From a virus (lineage: Duplodnaviria; Heunggongvirae; Uroviricota; Caudoviricetes): DNA of 5,965 nucleotides. The stretch is from IMG/VR virus record IMGVR_UViG_3300029157_000020; one strand, 5' to 3'. A model generated the notes under the pieces. That model was not told where the DNA came from, made no database searches, and worked only from the letters and a program-made list of their open reading frames with translations. This document shows positions 1 through 5,626 of the stretch, one piece after another. The position numbers and the translations under genes were made by a program. Numbering within the stretch: the stretch's first letter is position 1; each line of letters begins with the position of its first letter.

Positions 1-114
1 ACTCAACATGAACTAGATCTGGTTGCTGCTCAGCTAAACAACAGACCGAGAAAGACACTGAAGTTCAAAACACCGAAAGAGATAATTGAAAGGGGTGTTG
101 CATTGACAGATTGA
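1..114 (+). CDS. insI: IS30 transposase, C-terminal fragment (5' partial at window edge)
   Basis: Open frame 1 from the window start to TGA at 112-114; the C-terminal motif ...NNRPRKTLKFKTPKEIIERGVALTD is recognised as IS30 transposase (InsI in E. coli K-12 nomenclature). Confidence 0.85.
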   Translation, partial: TQHELDLVAAQLNNRPRKTLKFKTPKEIIERGVALTD

Positions 115-121
115 ATCTACA
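96..121. repeat. IS30 right terminal inverted repeat (IRR)
   Basis: 26-bp TGTTGCATTGACAGATTGAATCTACA overlapping the transposase stop codon, as expected for the IS30 right end. Its partner IRL is outside the window, so the inverted-repeat relationship could not be checked here. Confidence 0.75.
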
Positions 122-1019
122 GCGGCGTACTTCGCAAAGCTGTCCGACTGAGGTACGCCTTTATCCGCGACAACAGCCGTTGCTGGCCTGTTCGTTTGCT
201 CTGTCGGGTTCTGGATGTCCATCCGAGTGGATTTTATTTCTGGCTTCAGCAGCCACATTCGCAGCGTCACCAGACAGATCAGATGCTGACCGGGCAAATC
301 AAACAGTTCTGGCTTGAGTCTGGCTGCGTCTATGGTTATCGCAAGATCCATCTCGATCTGCGTGATACCGGACAGCAGTGCGGAGTGAACCGGGTCTGGC
401 GGCTGATGAAGCGTGCCGGAATAAAAGCTCAGGTTGGGTACCGTAGCCCACGAGCACGTAAAGGCGAAGCCAGCATCGTGACACCCAACAGGCTCCAGCG
501 GCAGTTCAATCCGGACTCACCGGATGAGCGTTGGGTGACGGACATAACCTACATCCGAACCCACGAAGGCTGGCTGTATCTGGCCGTGGTGGTTGGCCTG
601 TTCTCCCGAAAAGTTATCGGCTGGTCAAGCAACCCCGCATGACAAAAGAGATTGTCCTGAACGCATTACTTATGGCGGTGTGGAGGCGTAATCCTCAAAA
701 GCAGGTACTGGTTCACTCTGATCAGGGTAGTCAGTACACGAGCCATGAGTGGCAGTCGTTCCTGAAATCACACGGTCTGGAAGGCAGCATGAGTCGTCGC
801 GGTAACTGCCACGACAACGCGGTTGCGGAAAGCTTTTTCCAGCTACTGAAACGCGAACGGATTAAGAAAAGGATCTACGGAACGAGAGACGAAGCCAGAA
901 GCGATATTTTTGATTATATCGAAATGTTTTATAACAGTAAGCGTCGGCATGGTTCGAGCGAGCAGATGCCACCGGCTGAATATGAAAACCTATATTATCA
1001 ACGGCTCAGAAGTGTCTAG
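122..1019 (+). pseudogene. IS3-family (IS911-like) transposase OrfB remnant, 5'-truncated by the IS30 insertion and frameshifted
   Basis: Frame 1 from 122 reads ...CRVLDVHPSGFYFW...ERWVTDITYIRTHEGWLYLAVVVGLFSRKVIGWS and stops at 640-642. Frame 3 then continues RMTKEIVLNALLMAVWRRNPQKQVLVHSDQGSQYTSHEWQSFLKSHGLEGSMSRRGNCHDNAVAESFFQLLKRERIKK...YNSKRRH... to TAG at 1017-1019. This is a typical IS3-family OrfB integrase core (DDE region, HSDQGSQYTS, GNCHDNAVAESFF) split by a frame change at about 615-640. No orfA and no left end are present; the sequence abuts the IS30 IRR. It resembles the IS30-interrupted IS911 arrangement I recall from E. coli K-12. The right boundary is uncertain, about 1019-1037. 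Confidence 0.8.
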
Positions 1020-1041
1020 ATTATCCGTGGCGATTCAATGG

Positions 1042-1173
1042 GGTAACCACTTTTGGTCACGTGGATACTTTGTAGATACTGTCGGTGTGAACGAGGAAAT
1101 TATCAGACGATATGTGCGGCATCAGGAGAAAATGGAGCAAATGCACGAACAGCAGATGGAATTGCTAGAGTAG
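1042..1173 (+). pseudogene. IS200/IS605-family TnpA (Y1/HUH transposase) C-terminal remnant
   Basis: Translation GNHFWSRGYFVDTVGVNEEIIRRYVRHQEKMEQMHEQQMELLE* closely parallels the IS200 TnpA C-terminus as I recall it (...FWCRGYYVDTVGKN...IKHQLEEDK...). Only about 44 codons are present and there is no in-frame N-terminal part. The upstream portion of the track ORF 910-1173 overlaps the IS3-family orfB and is not real. Confidence 0.65.
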
Positions 1174-1188
1174 CATGAGGAAGGTGAC

Positions 1189-1246
1189 AATGCCCCCCTT
1201 ACAGGGGACATTCTCAAAAGCCACCTTCTTAGAAGGTGGTCTTTTA
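1189..1246. terminator. Two hairpins after the TnpA remnant (IS200-like right-end structures); the second is a likely bidirectional rho-independent terminator
   Basis: Imperfect hairpin at 1189-1212 (AATGCCCCCC-TTACA-GGGGACATT). Perfect 8-bp stem CCACCTTC / GAAGGTGG with a 3-nt loop at 1221-1239, followed by TCTTTT on the plus strand and by CTTTTG on the minus strand. It lies between the convergent TnpA remnant and the acyltransferase stop (1247-1249). Confidence 0.5.
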
Positions 1247-2352
1247 CTAACTCTGTCTGCTTAGTTCATTTCCTAATGCAGGAAATTTACATGATATTAT
1301 AGATCTTGATAATCTGATAAATGGCCTTTCTACTACATTGTAGAAAATATATGCAGTGGTTATCGTTATGATGAACAAAAGGATAAGTCTGGACATTCCT
1401 ACCCACTGATTGTAAATTGGTATATTTGCTCCAAACTTATCTAAATACATGGTAATGGCAATATGCGTCAGATATAACGAATAAGAGATGTCACCGAAAA
1501 ATGATAGCATCTTTATCTCTTTTATCTCATTTTTCATTTCATAGGCAACAAGTGTCGCAATCAGCAGGATCGCCCATAATCCATAGTTAAAAGGCCCGTG
1601 TGCTGCTTTGTATTGAGCAAAGTAGAAACAGAAAACTAACGAGCATGAAATTACAGCAATGACATTAATTTTGGGGGGTGATGATATTACGTTTCTTAAT
1701 TCGTATACCATCATGCCAAATATGAATTCTATTAACATCGGCGATGAGGTAAACCGCAGGAATGCCGCTAAGCCTTCCGGCATTCCTGCCTGTAGTGCAA
1801 TTGCATTGTCACCTTCCATGCTAATACTGCCATTAAAGTAAAGTTGCAGACTGAACACAGAGACGGCAAGCATAAATTATGCAATCCATGATCTGTATTT
1901 ATGACTAATGCTCATCGCAACGAAGAATATCAGATAAAAATAAATCTCATAGGTCAGGGTCCACGCTTGCCCTATCATGTTGCCACCAAAGAACGGTGCC
2001 TGCTGGCTGTAGTCAGCCTGTATCAGTAACGCAGATCTCCAGAATGAAAAATTATCTTCGTTTGAAATAAATAAAATATTGCCAACGTAATAATAAACAA
2101 CGGATAAATCCTGAAGAATCTTTTTACAACATATTTAGTTAACATGTTGTCTTCACTCTTTGCGGTTGAAAGCGCAATAATAAATCCGCTAATCATGAAG
2201 AAAAGGTCTACCCCAAAGGATCCGCTTATGAACATTAAATCACCGAAATTCTTTATCGGATAAATATCATTAAGGTTACCTCTGAAGTGGAAGCCAACAA
2301 CCAATATGGCCGCAATGCCTCGAAGGTATTGAATAGAACGCACTTGCTGCAT
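1247..2352 (-). pseudogene. Acyltransferase family 3 (OafA/Oac-like membrane O-acyltransferase), disrupted by one frameshift and one in-frame TAA
   Basis: Minus-strand N-terminal ORF (ATG at 2350-2352; MQQVRSIQYLRGIAAILVVGFHF...GVDLFFMISGFIIA...RIYPLF...) stops at 2023-2025. The middle segment continues in another frame (...QAPFFGGNMIGQAWTLTYEIYFYLIFFVA...) to an in-frame TAA (complement of 1877-1879). The same frame then continues ...FFGDISYSLYLTHIAITMYL... to the stop at 1247-1249. These motifs are hallmarks of Pfam acyltransferase_3. Total length is about 367 codons. Strongly AT-rich. Confidence 0.75.
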
Positions 2353-2750
2353 AATTCTACCTAAGCTAGTTAATAATTTTCGTGTCGCGAATTGTAATCT
2401 ATATGAAAGCCTGTGTCAGCAATGCATCATTTGGACGTCAGAAGGTGTCGCGGTAGTCGATCGGGGTCTGGTCGTGCGGCTGGATGACATTCTACTCGCC
2501 ATTCTCGATGGTCGTAGCTACTTCGGTAAGGTAATGTAGAAAGTGATCATCACGGATTAAGATGATTCGATAGAAGGGGATTGTCTTGATGAGCTTGAAG
2601 CTGTTGTTACATCGGCCGCGCCGGATATCTCTGGCCTGAAAAACCTGCTTAACGAAGATTGCCGCCGCCCATCGTATGTAAGAACGGACGGCGGCTGGTT
2701 GCTCAGTGTTCATGCCCGAGCAAACGTCGGGGATAGTACCCAAGTTAAAA

Positions 2751-3017
2751 TTAAAGGCCAACCTGGCGAACGGGCGATAACTCAGATACCAGCCACATAT
2801 CTGCCTCTTCAAACATATCCTCCAGCATGCGGTTCAGCTTTTCCCGATCGTTTTTGCTGGCATCACTATTCAAGCCGTTCGCCTGCATTGGCTTTACCTT
2901 CACTTCTGCATCAGGAAAAATCTGGTGCACTCGCTTTGTTAGCTCAGCCAGGATGATCTCTCTGGCCCCTTGGAGCCCTTCAACATTTCGCTTGTCATAA
3001 ACCAGTTCAACAAACAT
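2751..3017 (-). CDS. DinI-family protein (DNA-damage-inducible protein I paralogue), 88 aa
   Basis: MFVELVYDKRNVEGLQGAREIILAELTKRVHQIFPDAEVKVKPMQANGLNSDASKNDREKLNRMLEDMFEEADMWLVSE... aligns by eye with E. coli DinI (...ELSRRIQYAFPDNEGHVSVRY...ILQETWESADDWFVSE). ATG at 3015-3017 (complement) is preceded by a good SD (AAGAGGA, 5-nt spacer). A minus-strand TTGACT -35 (complement of 3091-3096) and a LexA box lie upstream. Confidence 0.8.
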   Translation of the reverse strand: MFVELVYDKRNVEGLQGAREIILAELTKRVHQIFPDAEVKVKPMQANGLNSDASKNDREKLNRMLEDMFEEADMWLVSELSPVRQVGL

Positions 3018-3074
3018 ACCGATCCTCTTATAAGTGAAAAATTGCCTGTGCTTGATCTGTTTTCATAAAAATAA

Positions 3075-3094
3075 TACTGTATATGAATACAGTC
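3075..3094. promoter_or_regulatory. LexA (SOS) operator in the divergent intergenic region
   Basis: TACTGTATATGAATACAGTC has a perfect CTGT(3077-3080)-N8-ACAG(3089-3092) with an AT-rich spacer, matching the E. coli LexA box consensus TACTGT(AT)4ACAGTA. It sits between the -35 TTGACT and a TATTTT-like -10 of the minus-strand DinI-like promoter, and about 25 bp upstream of the plus-strand 79-aa ORF start. Confidence 0.7.
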
Positions 3095-3117
3095 AATAAG
3101 CGAATGAGGGTGCGTTA

Positions 3118-3357
3118 ATGCCTCGCCAACCGGATATTCGTGCTGCTTTTATTGCGGCCATACAGCAAAACCCTAAGGGCTATCTCTGCCTGCACAAAGA
3201 CAAATTCATCGCTGAACTGCAGGAGAGGCACTGGCATTTCAGCCTGGCGGATGCAAATTCATGGATCGAGCGATTCCAGCCGGAGTTCGCCGATAAGACG
3301 ACAAACGGAAGCGAGAACCGATACTGGATCCTGCGTAACATGGGGATGGTTTACTAA
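3118..3357 (+). CDS. Hypothetical 79-aa protein divergent from the DinI-like gene; putatively LexA-controlled
   Basis: ATG at 3118 is preceded by GAGGG (3106-3110, 7-nt spacer); stop TAA at 3355-3357. The translation MPRQPDIRAAFIAAIQQNPKGYLCLHKDKFIAELQERHWHFSLADANSWIERFQPEFADKTTNGSENRYWILRNMGMVY has balanced composition. The overlapping alternative frame (3140-3448) is Arg/Ser-rich junk. No family recognised. Confidence 0.55.
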   Translation: MPRQPDIRAAFIAAIQQNPKGYLCLHKDKFIAELQERHWHFSLADANSWIERFQPEFADKTTNGSENRYWILRNMGMVY

Positions 3358-3398
3358 TGGGATTTCCATCCCCAGCCATGGATTACTAGGAGCAGCGC

Positions 3399-3464
3399 AT
3401 GACGATAGATGTTATCTGCGGTGTAGACAACAACTGCCGGGTTATTGAAACTTCATGCGGCTAG
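3399..3464 (+). CDS. Possible 21-codon Cys-rich small ORF (MTIDVICGVDNNCRVIETSCG), or the 5' piece of a decayed gene
   Basis: ATG at 3399 is preceded by a canonical AGGAG (3388-3392, 6-nt spacer); stop TAG at 3462-3464. Downstream frames contain protein-like but interrupted segments. Weak call. Confidence 0.2.
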   Translation: MTIDVICGVDNNCRVIETSCG

Positions 3465-3740
3465 GCCGTTATTAACGTCAGTCTGAAGCCAGAAGAGGGG
3501 ATGCGTTGCTGGTTAGCATGGACGGGAGAAACCAGTTTGTGAAGCTAATGGGTCAGGCGCTGATCACTTAAGATGGTGAAGCGATTGAAGGGGAAGCTCT
3601 GAATGATGTAACGGTGCACGGCGTTCTTACACATACACTTAACCAGGTTAAAGACGATAAATCGCCTGTAATGTAGCGTGTAACTGTCGGTGGTTATTCC
3701 CCAATTTTTCCCCAATGCTTCCCCGTACAAATTTCAAACA

Positions 3741-3770
3741 TGAAAAAACCAGCCGTAAAAGGCTGGTTTT
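3741..3770. terminator. Bidirectional rho-independent terminator immediately 3' of the tRNA-Pro fragment
   Basis: Stem AACCAGCC (3747-3754), loop GTAAAA, stem GGCTGGTT (3761-3768), flanked by an A-run (3742-3746) on one side and TT on the other. On the minus strand it gives a stem followed by TTTTT directly downstream of the tRNA CCA end. Confidence 0.6.
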
Positions 3771-3781
3771 CAATGTGTTTT

Positions 3782-3831
3782 TGGTCGGCACGAGAGGATT
3801 TGAACCTCCGACCCCCGACACCCCATGACGG
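3782..3831 (-). tRNA. Truncated tRNA-Pro (anticodon GGG, proL-like): 3' 50 nt only (positions about 27-76); not a functional gene
   Basis: Minus-strand sequence CCGTCATGGGGTGTCGGGGGTCGGAGGTTCAAATCCTCTCGTGCCGACCA contains the anticodon loop (U33, GGG at 34-36), variable loop, T-arm (GGAGG-TTCAAAT-CCTCT), acceptor 3' strand and CCA. It matches the 3' half of E. coli tRNA-Pro(GGG) as I recall it. Beyond 3831 the sequence (ATGTTCAAATTT...) no longer matches the D-arm or acceptor 5' strand. Confidence 0.75.
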
Positions 3832-3858
3832 ATGTTCAAATTTCTTCTAGCTTATCTA

Positions 3859-4746: not shown

Positions 4747-5151
4747 TTGAGTGTTATCCCGGCTGATGCTGTAGACTTTACTCAAGAAGAACATATTCAT
4801 CTCATCGCCGGGATGAATGATGGTGAGCAACGTGTCTGCAGTGATACAGGCGGGAAATTGATGCTGTCTGGCCGCAGACCTTCTCAATGGTATACCTGGG
4901 ATAATGATAATAATGCGTGGGCTATTTCGGATCATGCACGGGTCCAGCTTGCAGAAGCTGAGAAATTTCGTCGAATCCATGAGGCAAACGACTTTATCAA
5001 TAACCAGCAATTGCCTGGCAAAACTGCCATGGGGCGACTGAAAGATTCAGAGAAAGAACACTACAATTTGTGGCTGGATTATCTTAAAGCGCTGGAGGCG
5101 GTCGATACATCAACTGCGCCAGATATCCTCTGGATAGATAAACCTGAATAA
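4747..5151 (+). CDS. tfa: Phage tail-fiber assembly protein (Tfa family); orphan, and possibly 5'-defective
   Basis: The C-terminal region ...[26 protein letters not shown]...[33 protein letters not shown] parallels lambda/Rac-type Tfa C-termini (...WVKDTEAEKLFRIREAEE...[26 protein letters not shown]). There is no in-frame ATG: the frame opens after TAA at 4660-4662, the first start-like codon is TTG at 4747, and an ATG-ATG at 4736-4741 with an AGG upstream is in a different frame and hits TGA after 4 codons. No tail-fiber gene lies upstream (4273-4660 is AT-rich non-coding). Confidence 0.75.
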   Translation: [134 protein letters not shown]

Positions 5152-5616: not shown

Positions 5617-5626
5617 NNNNNNNNNN
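5617..5626. other. Assembly gap (10 N): scaffold join, true spacing and adjacency unknown
   Basis: Run of 10 n characters in the sequence. Confidence 0.95.

What the first reader, a model, noticed from the sequence alone, without database searches (positions are those of the whole stretch)
2353..2750. Higher-GC spacer downstream of the DinI-like gene with protein-like frames on both strands but no clean gene
The plus strand carries a stop-free frame from about 2560 that runs into the antisense of dinI and lacks any ATG or GTG start. The minus strand has a possible 73-codon ORF (ATG at complement of 2711-2713, stop at 2492-2494) without an SD. Composition differs from the AT-rich neighbours. 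If DinI-like genes here are co-transcribed with a partner, as in the prophage antirepressor operons I recall, this could be the decayed or unusual downstream gene. It also holds the promoter region of the acyltransferase pseudogene.
Basis: inference. Interest (0 to 1): 0.28.

Follow-up and report, generated by a model that had tools for sequence, protein, structure and literature searches.

The report
Prophage gene scraps beside dinI terminator
The spacer is not a hidden gene but a patchwork of leftovers (a piece of a UmuD'-like gene, the tail end of a tail-fibre-assembly gene, the dinI terminator hairpin and probably the acyltransferase promoter), which is ordinary for a decayed prophage end.

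Summary
The + frame is stop-free from 2561 with no ATG or GTG. A 73-codon minus ORF runs 2713->2495. GC is 0.48 against 0.375 in the acyltransferase. None of these open frames is longer than shuffles give.

The spacer resolves into four pieces:
1. 2353-2419: leader and a consensus-only sigma-70 promoter of the acyltransferase.
2. 2417-2602 (+): an internal, twice-stopped fragment of a short HumD/UmuD'-like gene (phrog_3469, E 4e-12).
3. 2578-2652 (+): the last ~24 codons of a tail fibre assembly (tfa) gene. A 1-nt deletion hides its stop at 2650-2652, which explains the "startless" frame running into dinI antisense.
4. 2653-2750 (-): the dinI 3'UTR, with a 13-bp GC hairpin at 2661-2695. This stretch is conserved in E. 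coli and Enterobacter prophages and in a phage deposited as Aeromonas phage AsXd-1, whatever gene lies beyond it.

The minus ORF has no relative among 5.8 billion proteins. Its length is set by unrelated flanking DNA.

The locus is fixed (at most 1 SNP) in ten assemblies next to icd. Exact protein matches name Enterobacter roggenkampii. This is ordinary prophage decay.

The parts
2353..2419 (-). Leader of the acyltransferase gene (ATG at complement 2350-2352) plus a predicted sigma-70 promoter: -35 CTGACA at 2419-2414 and -10 TACAAT at 2396-2391. This stretch is AT-rich like the acyltransferase.
   Evidence: Promoter scan: 10 of 12 matches, but not above the shuffle expectation. GC 0.351. An IS replaces everything left of 2384 in L010 while the rest of the spacer is kept.
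2417..2602 (+). Internal fragment of a short HumD/UmuD'-like gene (derived from the S24 peptidase family). It lacks about 25 N-terminal and about 19 C-terminal codons and carries two in-frame stops, TAG 2537-2539 and TAA 2558-2560.
   Evidence: 72% nucleotide identity to an 'S24/S26 family peptidase' or hypothetical gene at a prophage end in 5 E. coli genomes. phrog_3469 'UmuD-like protein', E 4e-12, profile positions 26-87 of 106; this is the only hit in a six-frame scan. The nearest intact proteins are 109 aa at 68-70% identity.
2578..2652 (+). The last ~24 codons of a tail fibre assembly (tfa) gene. A 1-nt deletion near 2629-2631 puts the ancestral stop TAA 2650-2652 out of frame. The junction with the HumD-like fragment lies within 2578-2600, in a short patch similar to both parents (LD-x-LEAV).
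   Evidence: 86% nucleotide identity, continuous with dinI, to E. coli A41, where this stretch is the 3' end of an annotated 141-aa Caudo_TAP protein. The frameshift-corrected peptide ...APDIxWPEKPA* hits the last 22 positions of Tfa PHROGs (phrog_188, E 4.5e-5). The window's own second tfa reads GATATCCTCTGG where the remnant reads GATATCTCTGG.
2653..2750 (-). dinI 3'UTR, which is the spacer between convergent transcription units. It holds two predicted hairpins on the dinI-sense RNA.
   Evidence: Homology to L017, L021, L022, L023 and L026 runs from dinI down to 2661/2662 and stops there, whatever gene lies beyond (tail fibre or tfa). Fold energy is -42 kcal/mol, z -3.9, on the dinI-sense strand, against -33.9, z -1.4, on the + strand.
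2661..2695 (-). GC-rich hairpin with a 13-bp stem (3 G-U pairs) and a 9-nt loop. Probable intrinsic terminator of dinI, possibly bidirectional.
   Evidence: 92% of cells are paired across 8 relatives and 2 pairs show changes on both sides, but this does not exceed the shuffles. Runs of T follow the stem in L023, L026 and AsXd-1. In the window the tail is only AAUCUUCGUU, and the simple terminator scan found nothing.
2700..2722 (-). Second, smaller hairpin with a 7-bp stem. Its loop contains the ATG of the 73-codon ORF.
   Evidence: 5 of the 7 pairs are invariant in 8 relatives, which gives no covariation information.
2492..2713 (-). The 73-codon ORF (106 codons from TTG 2812). It is antisense to the tfa and HumD-like remnants and is judged spurious.
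   Evidence: No family hit. The only database match is its own 106-aa cluster. No gene was called here in 10 assemblies. The equivalent ORF stops after 30-31 codons in L017 and L021.
2751..3017 (-). DinI-family gene, 88 aa, intact.
   Evidence: Pfam DinI, E 2e-23. The exact protein is named DinI family protein [Enterobacter roggenkampii].
3075..3094 (.). LexA box TACTGTATATGAATACAGTC, lying between and overlapping the -35 and -10 elements of the dinI promoter (TTGACT 3096-3091, TATTTT 3073-3068). It sits in the divergent region shared with the 79-aa ORF.
   Evidence: Read directly from the sequence, with the promoter scan. The CTGT-N8-ACAG consensus is from established knowledge.
3118..3675 (+). 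Context: the 79-aa phrog_3893 ORF (3118-3357) is followed by a second, independent HumD/UmuD'-like pseudogene (3357-3675, several in-frame stops). This shows what the fragment at 2417-2602 once belonged to.
   Evidence: Intact 79-aa plus 106-aa gene pairs are present in L017 and in L002/L003.

Best explanation
The 398-nt spacer is a mosaic scar at the end of a decayed lambdoid prophage beside icd, with no functional gene of its own. The organism is Enterobacter roggenkampii, judged by exact protein matches.

Reading left to right on the + strand:
(a) The upstream leader and probable promoter of the divergently placed (minus-strand) acyltransferase moron.
(b) An internal piece of a short HumD/UmuD'-like gene from another prophage end, dead (two stops, both ends missing).
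(c) This piece is fused, through a few bases of chance similarity, to the last ~24 codons of a tail fibre assembly gene. A 1-nt deletion removed that gene's stop from the frame, so the frame drifts on through the spacer and into dinI antisense. That is why it looks coding yet has no start.
(d) The 3'UTR of the SOS-regulated dinI moron. Its GC-rich hairpin at 2661-2695 ends the dinI transcript and, in intact relatives, also separates it from the converging tail-gene transcript.

Shown: the homologies, the stops, the frameshift, conservation of the 3'UTR independent of its neighbour, and fixation of the whole arrangement in ten assemblies.
Inferred: that the hairpin terminates transcription, that the 2419-2391 site is the acyltransferase promoter, and that the fusions arose by deletion or illegitimate recombination between stacked prophage ends.
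For: - tfa remnant.
- HumD/UmuD'-like remnant.
- Six-frame PHROG scan: hits in one + frame only.
- Minus ORF: an orphan, not called by any annotation in 10 assemblies.
- Open frames no longer than chance.
- Antisense frames of dinI are not kept open among 80 homologues: 23 of 80, 5 of 80 and 0 of 80 for the three frames.
- dinI 3'UTR and hairpin conserved next to different genes in L001, L017, L021-L023, L026 and AsXd-1.
- The fold is stronger than shuffles on the dinI-sense strand.
- The spacer is 99.7-100% identical in L004-L013, with the acyltransferase intact (369 aa) in four of them.
- The window holds a second copy of the 79-aa + HumD-like module, a second tfa, and (just beyond its right end in L004) a second acyltransferase. 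This fits stacked prophage ends.
Against: - The parental HumD-like gene is only 72% (nucleotide) and 68-70% (protein) identical to the nearest intact relatives, so the donor and the exact left boundary (2417-2434) are not pinned down.
- No relative was found that keeps the undeleted arrangement.
- The hairpin lacks a canonical U-tract in the window, and the simple terminator scan found none.
- Covariation in the stem does not exceed shuffles with only 8 sequences.
- In AsXd-1 the G-U pairs favour the opposite strand, so strand assignment of the hairpin is not firm.
- The promoter call is a consensus match at chance frequency.
- No expression data were available.
Confidence: 0.9

Rival explanations
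1. One reading: the spacer is a decayed or unusual gene downstream of dinI and co-transcribed with it, like the antirepressor in Gifsy dinI-gfoA/gftA-irsA operons.
For: - Gifsy prophages do have dinI followed by a small antirepressor that starts at a non-canonical GUG (PMC3121763).
- An open 73/106-codon frame exists on the dinI strand.
- In AsXd-1, two small genes (125 and 36 aa) lie between dinI and the hairpin, so insertion at this spot does occur in some relatives.
Against: - The minus frame has no hit in Pfam, PHROGs or NCBIfam.
- It has no relative in 5.8 billion proteins.
- Its sequence is the antisense of recognisable tfa and HumD-like remnants.
- Its length varies (30, 31 or 73 codons) with the unrelated flank.
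- The ATG lies in a hairpin loop and has no Shine-Dalgarno motif.
- A strong hairpin lies 55-90 nt after the dinI stop.
- The Gifsy operon is in a different, mid-prophage context.
Confidence: 0.03
2. The conserved dinI 3'UTR (about 2661-2730) is more than a terminator. It could be a 3'UTR-derived small RNA released from the SOS-induced dinI mRNA, or it could encode a ~30-aa peptide (MNTEQPAA...).
For: - The ~70-90 nt element is 83-98% identical across E. coli and Enterobacter prophages and a phage deposited as an Aeromonas phage, independent of flanks.
- It has two hairpins, with a fold z-score of -3.9.
- The ATG and the first ~18 codons are retained in relatives.
Against: - No Rfam family matches.
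- Its conservation is no higher than that of the adjoining dinI coding sequence.
- There is no significant covariation.
- The peptide's conserved part is simply the translated hairpin.
- There is no Shine-Dalgarno motif.
- A terminator is sufficient to explain the conservation.
Confidence: 0.06
3. The + strand chimera (HumD-like fragment fused to the tfa tail) is expressed as a new protein or regulatory RNA.
For: A 131-codon stop-free frame exists, and one gene caller somewhere called a 70-aa ORF over the fragment (P0004).
Against: - Two in-frame stops lie inside the fragment.
- There is no ATG or GTG in the open part.
- No promoter-like site was found on the + strand.
- The frame is not longer than chance.
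- The frame ends at varying places in relatives.
Confidence: 0.01

Closest known systems
Phage P1 HumD and the UmuD' family (pre-processed UmuD homologues; McLenigan et al. 1999, J Bacteriol 181:7005, cited via PMC4713147)
   Same: The fragment at 2417-2602 belongs to a prophage family (phrog_3469). Intact members of that family start at MGFPSPAxDY, which is exactly the UmuD' N-terminus (alignment to PDB 1umu and 8gmt). Longer relatives, such as the 129-aa protein of L021, score as NCBIfam HumD equivalogs at 223 bits.
   Different: The window copy is an internal fragment with two stops. Even the intact short (106-109 aa) relatives score below the HumD cut-off (33-45 bits against 120). By my reading of the alignment they lack the GDSM serine region. 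Their function has not been tested.
Tail fibre assembly proteins (Pfam Caudo_TAP; lambda Tfa / gpK type)
   Same: 2578-2652 matches the conserved C-terminal ...LEAVDTSxAPDIxWPExP* motif and is contiguous with the same downstream spacer and dinI as in E. coli A41.
   Different: Only about 24 of about 141 codons remain. They are frameshifted, and there is no tail fibre gene upstream.
dinI/msgA-type morons at the tail-fibre end of lambdoid phages (mEp237, HK225, Flotzy, LLS)
   Same: The arrangement is the same: tail or tfa gene, then the convergent dinI gene with a LexA box, close to the prophage end.
   Different: Here the tail gene is reduced to a stub and joined to unrelated remnants.
Gifsy dinI-antirepressor-irsA SOS operon (PMC3121763)
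   Same: A LexA-controlled dinI homologue in a prophage.
   Different: In Gifsy prophages dinI is the first gene of an operon located mid-prophage. Here dinI is monocistronic, followed by a hairpin and converging genes, with no antirepressor-like ORF downstream.

Membership tests
HumD/UmuD'-like (S24-derived) protein gene | Significant sequence match to the family profile | tested here: met
   phrog_3469, E 4e-12, profile positions 26-87 of 106. 72% nucleotide identity to annotated S24/S26 genes.
HumD/UmuD'-like (S24-derived) protein gene | Complete uninterrupted reading frame with the GFPSPAxDY N-terminus | tested here: not met
   Stops at 2537-2539 and 2558-2560. Profile positions 1-25 and 88-106 are absent. 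It is therefore a pseudogene fragment, not a member gene.
HumD/UmuD'-like (S24-derived) protein gene | Scores above the NCBIfam HumD (NF051876) cut-off | tested here: not met
   The fragment gives no hit. Intact short relatives score 33-45 bits against a cut-off of 120. Only the 129-aa L021 protein passes, at 223 bits.
Tail fibre assembly protein (Caudo_TAP) | Match to the conserved C-terminal segment | tested here: met
   phrog_188, E 4.5e-5, over the last 22 profile positions after frameshift correction. 86% nucleotide identity to the A41 tfa 3' end.
Tail fibre assembly protein (Caudo_TAP) | Full-length domain in one frame | tested here: not met
   Only about 24 codons remain, with a 1-nt deletion before the stop.
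Gifsy-type dinI-antirepressor operon | A conserved ORF downstream of dinI on the same strand | tested here: not met
   The minus ORF is an orphan, has no PHROG hit, and varies in length among relatives.
Gifsy-type dinI-antirepressor operon | LexA box upstream of dinI | tested here: met
   TACTGTATATGAATACAGTC at 3075-3094. This feature is shared by all SOS dinI genes, so it does not discriminate.
Gifsy-type dinI-antirepressor operon | No terminator between dinI and the next same-strand gene | tested here: not met
   A 13-bp GC hairpin lies 55-90 nt after the dinI stop.
Intrinsic (rho-independent) terminator | GC-rich stem-loop just after a stop codon | tested here: met
   2661-2695. The 114-nt stretch containing this hairpin (2640-2753) folds at -42 kcal/mol, z -3.9.
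Intrinsic (rho-independent) terminator | U-tract directly after the stem | tested here: inconclusive
   The window has AAUCUUCGUU, and the scan found no terminator. L023 has a run of seven T directly after the stem; L026 and AsXd-1 have TTTTCTT.
Intrinsic (rho-independent) terminator | Actual 3' end of the transcript at this site | not testable with these tools
   Needs Term-seq or 3' RACE.
Sigma-70 promoter of the acyltransferase | -35 and -10 hexamers with 16-18 nt spacing upstream of the ATG | tested here: inconclusive
   CTGACA-17-TACAAT at 2419-2391 matches 10 of 12, but the count in the region equals the shuffle expectation.

The most novel reading that the evidence does not exclude
The dinI 3'UTR element (about 2661-2730; two hairpins) is nearly identical in prophages of Enterobacter and E. 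coli and in a phage deposited as an Aeromonas phage, regardless of what flanks it. It might be a functional 3'UTR-derived small RNA, or a portable module boundary, released on SOS induction rather than a plain terminator. A second possibility is that partial read-through of its weak U-tract couples expression of the neighbouring surface acyltransferase to the SOS response.
Probability: 0.06. Interest if true: 0.4.

Novelty: already known. Interest (0 to 1): 0.08.

Why it matters
Its main value is for annotation. It shows that the "protein-like" frames between dinI and the acyltransferase in this E. roggenkampii icd-adjacent island should be recorded as two pseudogene fragments plus a terminator, not as a hypothetical protein. 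It also illustrates how successive prophage right ends (tfa, dinI moron, 79-aa + HumD-like pair, att) pile up and are trimmed into each other. No new biology is implied.

Tried and rejected
- An exact 40-mer across the HumD/tfa junction found nothing in the GTDB representative genomes. The arrangement is therefore absent from species representatives.
- A literature search for the assembly accessions found nothing. The organism was identified instead from exact protein look-ups.
- Rfam with permissive thresholds found nothing in 2353-2750. The only hits were two weak terminator-like matches near 3724-3835.
- The simple terminator scan found none in 2200-3200.
- Distant DNA searches with the acyltransferase 5' end and its upstream region (1900-2440) gave one 68% coding hit in E. 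coli and none in phages. The cassette's left boundary could not be mapped by comparison.
- The genomic context of the Citrobacter portucalensis HumD-like protein P0005 is next to lysis genes, which says nothing about ancestry here.
- Covariation analysis of the hairpins is compatible with the structure but not significant.
- The hairpin initially looked dinI-strand specific because of its G-U pairs. AsXd-1 has its wobble on the other strand, so I treat the hairpin as potentially bidirectional.
- A conserved antisense ORF across dinI was considered and rejected: the frames are open in only 0-23 of 80 homologues.
- The two HumD-like copies in the window were checked and are not recent duplicates of each other.

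Full report
**Observation**

The window was read and ORFs listed. On the + strand the frame that opens after TAA 2558-2560 is stop-free from 2561 to 2953 (131 codons). It contains no ATG or GTG, only TTG at 2699, 2888 and 2936. On the minus strand an ATG at complement 2711-2713 opens a 73-codon frame that ends at complement 2492-2494. The stop-to-stop frame allows 106 codons from a TTG at 2812. There is no Shine-Dalgarno motif before the ATG.

GC is 0.48 over 2353-2750, against 0.375 in the acyltransferase pseudogene and 0.483 in dinI. The first 74 nt are AT-rich (0.351).

The open frames are not remarkable statistically. In 2000 dinucleotide shuffles the longest open run in the spacer (85 codons) is reached 31% of the time. 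The 131-codon run in spacer plus dinI is reached 6% of the time.

**What the plus strand is**

A megablast of 2300-3100 against complete E. coli genomes and against phages found dinI plus varying amounts of flank. In E. coli A41 the match (86%, 441 nt) runs from window 2578 through dinI. The part left of the spacer is the 3' end of an annotated 141-aa tail fibre assembly protein (Pfam Caudo_TAP, E 3.5e-36) that converges on dinI.

The alignment shows WLDYLDALEAVDTSTAPDITWPEQPA* in A41. In the window there is a single missing base in GATATC-TCTGG. The window's own second tfa (4747-5151) reads GATATCCTCTGG at the same spot. With that base restored, the window reads ...APDIxWPEKPA* and stops at TAA 2650-2652. 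This corrected peptide hits the last 22 positions of four Tfa PHROGs (best E 4.5e-5). The "startless stop-free frame" is thus a tfa stub whose stop was lost by a frameshift.

Further left, a distant blastn of 2340-2600 hit five E. coli genomes at 72% over window 2434-2596. The hit lies in a gene annotated hypothetical or "S24/S26 family peptidase". That gene is the last gene of a prophage and is preceded by a 79-aa gene. The window translation IIWTSEGVAVVDRGLVVRLDDILLAILDGRSYFGKVM*KVIITD*DDSIEGDCLDELEAV aligns with ...VIQTSEGLAVVDRGLMVRQGDILLTTMEGRSYFGKILGQAFITHDGDAIEGESLDELQVIGVV....

A six-frame scan of 2293-2810 against PHROGs gave a single hit: phrog_3469 "UmuD-like protein", E 4e-12, profile positions 26-87 of 106. 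That corresponds to window 2417-2602. Pfam gave nothing.

NCBIfam places the relatives near the HumD family. A 129-aa relative in E. hormaechei (L021) is a HumD equivalog at 223 bits. The short 106-109-aa forms score only 33-45 bits. Intact members begin MGFPSPAxDY, which aligns with residue 25 of UmuD, the N-terminus of processed UmuD'. P1 HumD is the described precedent for a phage-encoded pre-processed UmuD' (McLenigan et al. 1999, cited in PMC4713147).

The nearest intact proteins to the fragment in 5.8 billion sequences are 109 aa at 68-70% identity. The donor is therefore not close to anything on record.

The HumD-like and tfa homologies overlap at 2578-2596 (GGATTGTCTTGATGAGCTT), which resembles both parents. 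The two stubs were evidently joined by a deletion or illegitimate recombination at a patch of chance similarity (inference).

**What the minus strand is**

The 73/106-codon ORF has no Pfam, PHROG or NCBIfam hit. Against 5.8 billion proteins it finds only its own 106-aa cluster. None of ten assemblies carrying the locus has a called gene between dinI and the acyltransferase.

In relatives the ORF starts the same way (MNTEQPAA...), because that part is the translated hairpin. It ends after 30-31 codons in L017 and L021, where the flanking DNA is different. It is the antisense shadow of the two remnants.

The + frame's run through dinI antisense is not conserved either. Among 80 dinI homologues the three antisense frames are fully open in 23, 5 and 0 cases.

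**The right-hand quarter (2653-2750)**

Searching GTDB representative genomes with the DinI protein gave 80 loci. In L017, L021, L022, L023 and L026, homology to the window extends from dinI down to 2661/2662 and ends there. Beyond that lies a tail fibre gene rather than tfa.

On the dinI-sense RNA this stretch folds into a 7-bp hairpin (2700-2722) and a 13-bp GC-rich hairpin (2661-2695). The energy is -42 kcal/mol, z -3.9. The + strand folds less well (-33.9 kcal/mol, z -1.4).

Across eight relatives 92% of cells stay paired and two pairs change on both sides. With so few sequences this does not exceed the shuffles.

L023 has a run of seven T directly after the stem, and L026 and AsXd-1 have TTTTCTT. 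The window has only AAUCUUCGUU, and the simple terminator scan reports nothing.

The 50-nt 98% hit to "Aeromonas phage AsXd-1" is this same element. That phage has a dinI at 82% nucleotide identity and the hairpin right after its tail fibre gene, with two small genes inserted between them. Its G-U wobble favours the tail-sense strand.

I read the element as the terminator and module boundary between converging tail and dinI transcription, possibly working in both directions. This is inferred, not shown.

**The left end**

A sigma-70-like site (CTGACA-17-TACAAT, 2419-2391, minus strand) lies 39 nt upstream of the acyltransferase ATG. Such sites occur at chance frequency in this region. In L010 an IS replaces everything left of 2384, and the rest of the spacer is untouched.

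**Context and organism**

The exact DinI protein occurs on many contigs. Ten long ones (L004-L013) carry the same locus at 99.5-99.8% identity, next to icd and rluE. Their spacer is identical except for one SNP in L012. The acyltransferase is intact (369 aa) in four of them.

Exact look-ups name these proteins Enterobacter roggenkampii.

The dinI promoter region carries a LexA box at 3075-3094 and diverges from a 79-aa phrog_3893 ORF. That ORF is followed by a second, independently decayed HumD-like pseudogene (3357-3675), a terminator and a 50-nt tRNA fragment. I read that fragment as tRNA-Pro from memory; ARAGORN calls no tRNA gene in the window.

A further tfa lies at 4747-5151, and a second acyltransferase lies beyond the right end of the window. 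This is a stack of trimmed prophage right ends.

In Gifsy prophages dinI is the first gene of a LexA-controlled dinI-antirepressor-irsA operon, 1.3 kb downstream of the replication genes (PMC3121763). Here dinI is a tail-end moron, as in mEp237 and HK225. It is followed by a hairpin and converging genes, with no homologue of anything on its own strand. The idea of a decayed co-transcribed partner is not supported. The broader intuition that this is decayed coding sequence is correct.

**Verdict**

This is ordinary prophage decay, fully explained by known families. Interest is low.

Noticed in passing
window 3118-3675 (+), with the LexA box at 3075-3094: A divergent SOS module. The LexA box is shared by dinI (minus strand) and by a 79-aa phrog_3893 ORF followed by a HumD/UmuD'-like gene. 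The HumD-like gene is a pseudogene here (several in-frame stops) but is intact (106 aa) in L017. The short HumD-like proteins start at the UmuD' N-terminus (MGFPSPAxDY), appear to lack the GDSM serine region, and always follow the uncharacterised 79-aa protein, which PGAP once names 'DNA polymerase V'. The function of the pair is unknown.
   Followed up: partly
L094 (Aeromonas phage AsXd-1, MH178096.1) 1983-2050 and 3019-3282: A phage deposited with host Aeromonas salmonicida carries a dinI gene 82% identical in DNA to this Enterobacter one. Its hairpin element is identical to that of an Enterobacter MAG (L026). Two extra small genes (125 and 36 aa) are inserted between dinI and the hairpin. 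Such DNA identity is surprising across these hosts. It could reflect recent exchange or a host misassignment.
   Followed up: partly
window 3743-3832: A terminator-like hairpin at 3743-3778 gave weak, sub-threshold Rfam hits to STnc450 and isrK. It is followed by a ~50-nt fragment at 3780-3829 that is 98% identical to a stretch beside the dinI-like gene in the Salmonella enterica representative (L059). I take the fragment to be the 3' end of a tRNA-Pro gene, i.e. a prophage att remnant. The tRNA identity is from memory; ARAGORN finds no complete tRNA.
   Followed up: partly
window 1247-2352 (-): The acyltransferase (Acyl_transf_3, O-acetyltransferase-like) is split into three ORF pieces here. 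It is intact (369 aa) in L004, L007, L009 and L012, so inactivation is recent and polymorphic within the species.
   Followed up: partly
L005, insertion between window positions 2336 and 2344: One assembly has a ~125-nt insertion in the first codons of the acyltransferase, flanked by a 9-bp direct duplication (GAACGCACT). It looks like a miniature transposable element.
   Followed up: no
window 1-1240: A pile of IS debris. It includes an IS3-family orfB broken by a frameshift (196-642 and 531-1019), the C-terminal stub of an IS200-type Y1 transposase (about 1040-1173), and a terminator-like palindrome at about 1190-1240.
   Followed up: no
window 4747-5151 (+): A second tail fibre assembly ORF (134 aa; Caudo_TAP positions 38-131 only, TTG start). 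It is N-terminally truncated or re-started and sits without a tail fibre gene upstream. Annotators call it at 96, 112, 134 or 148 aa.
   Followed up: no
window 5617-5626: A run of 10 N (an assembly gap) inside the right-hand AT-rich region.
   Followed up: no
L017 (DAINBV010000046.1), L018, L027, L060: Contigs carrying this enterobacterial dinI module are filed under a Geobacteraceae MAG, Chitinophaga, Kocuria and Vagococcus genomes. This is probably contamination or mis-binning in those assemblies.
   Followed up: no
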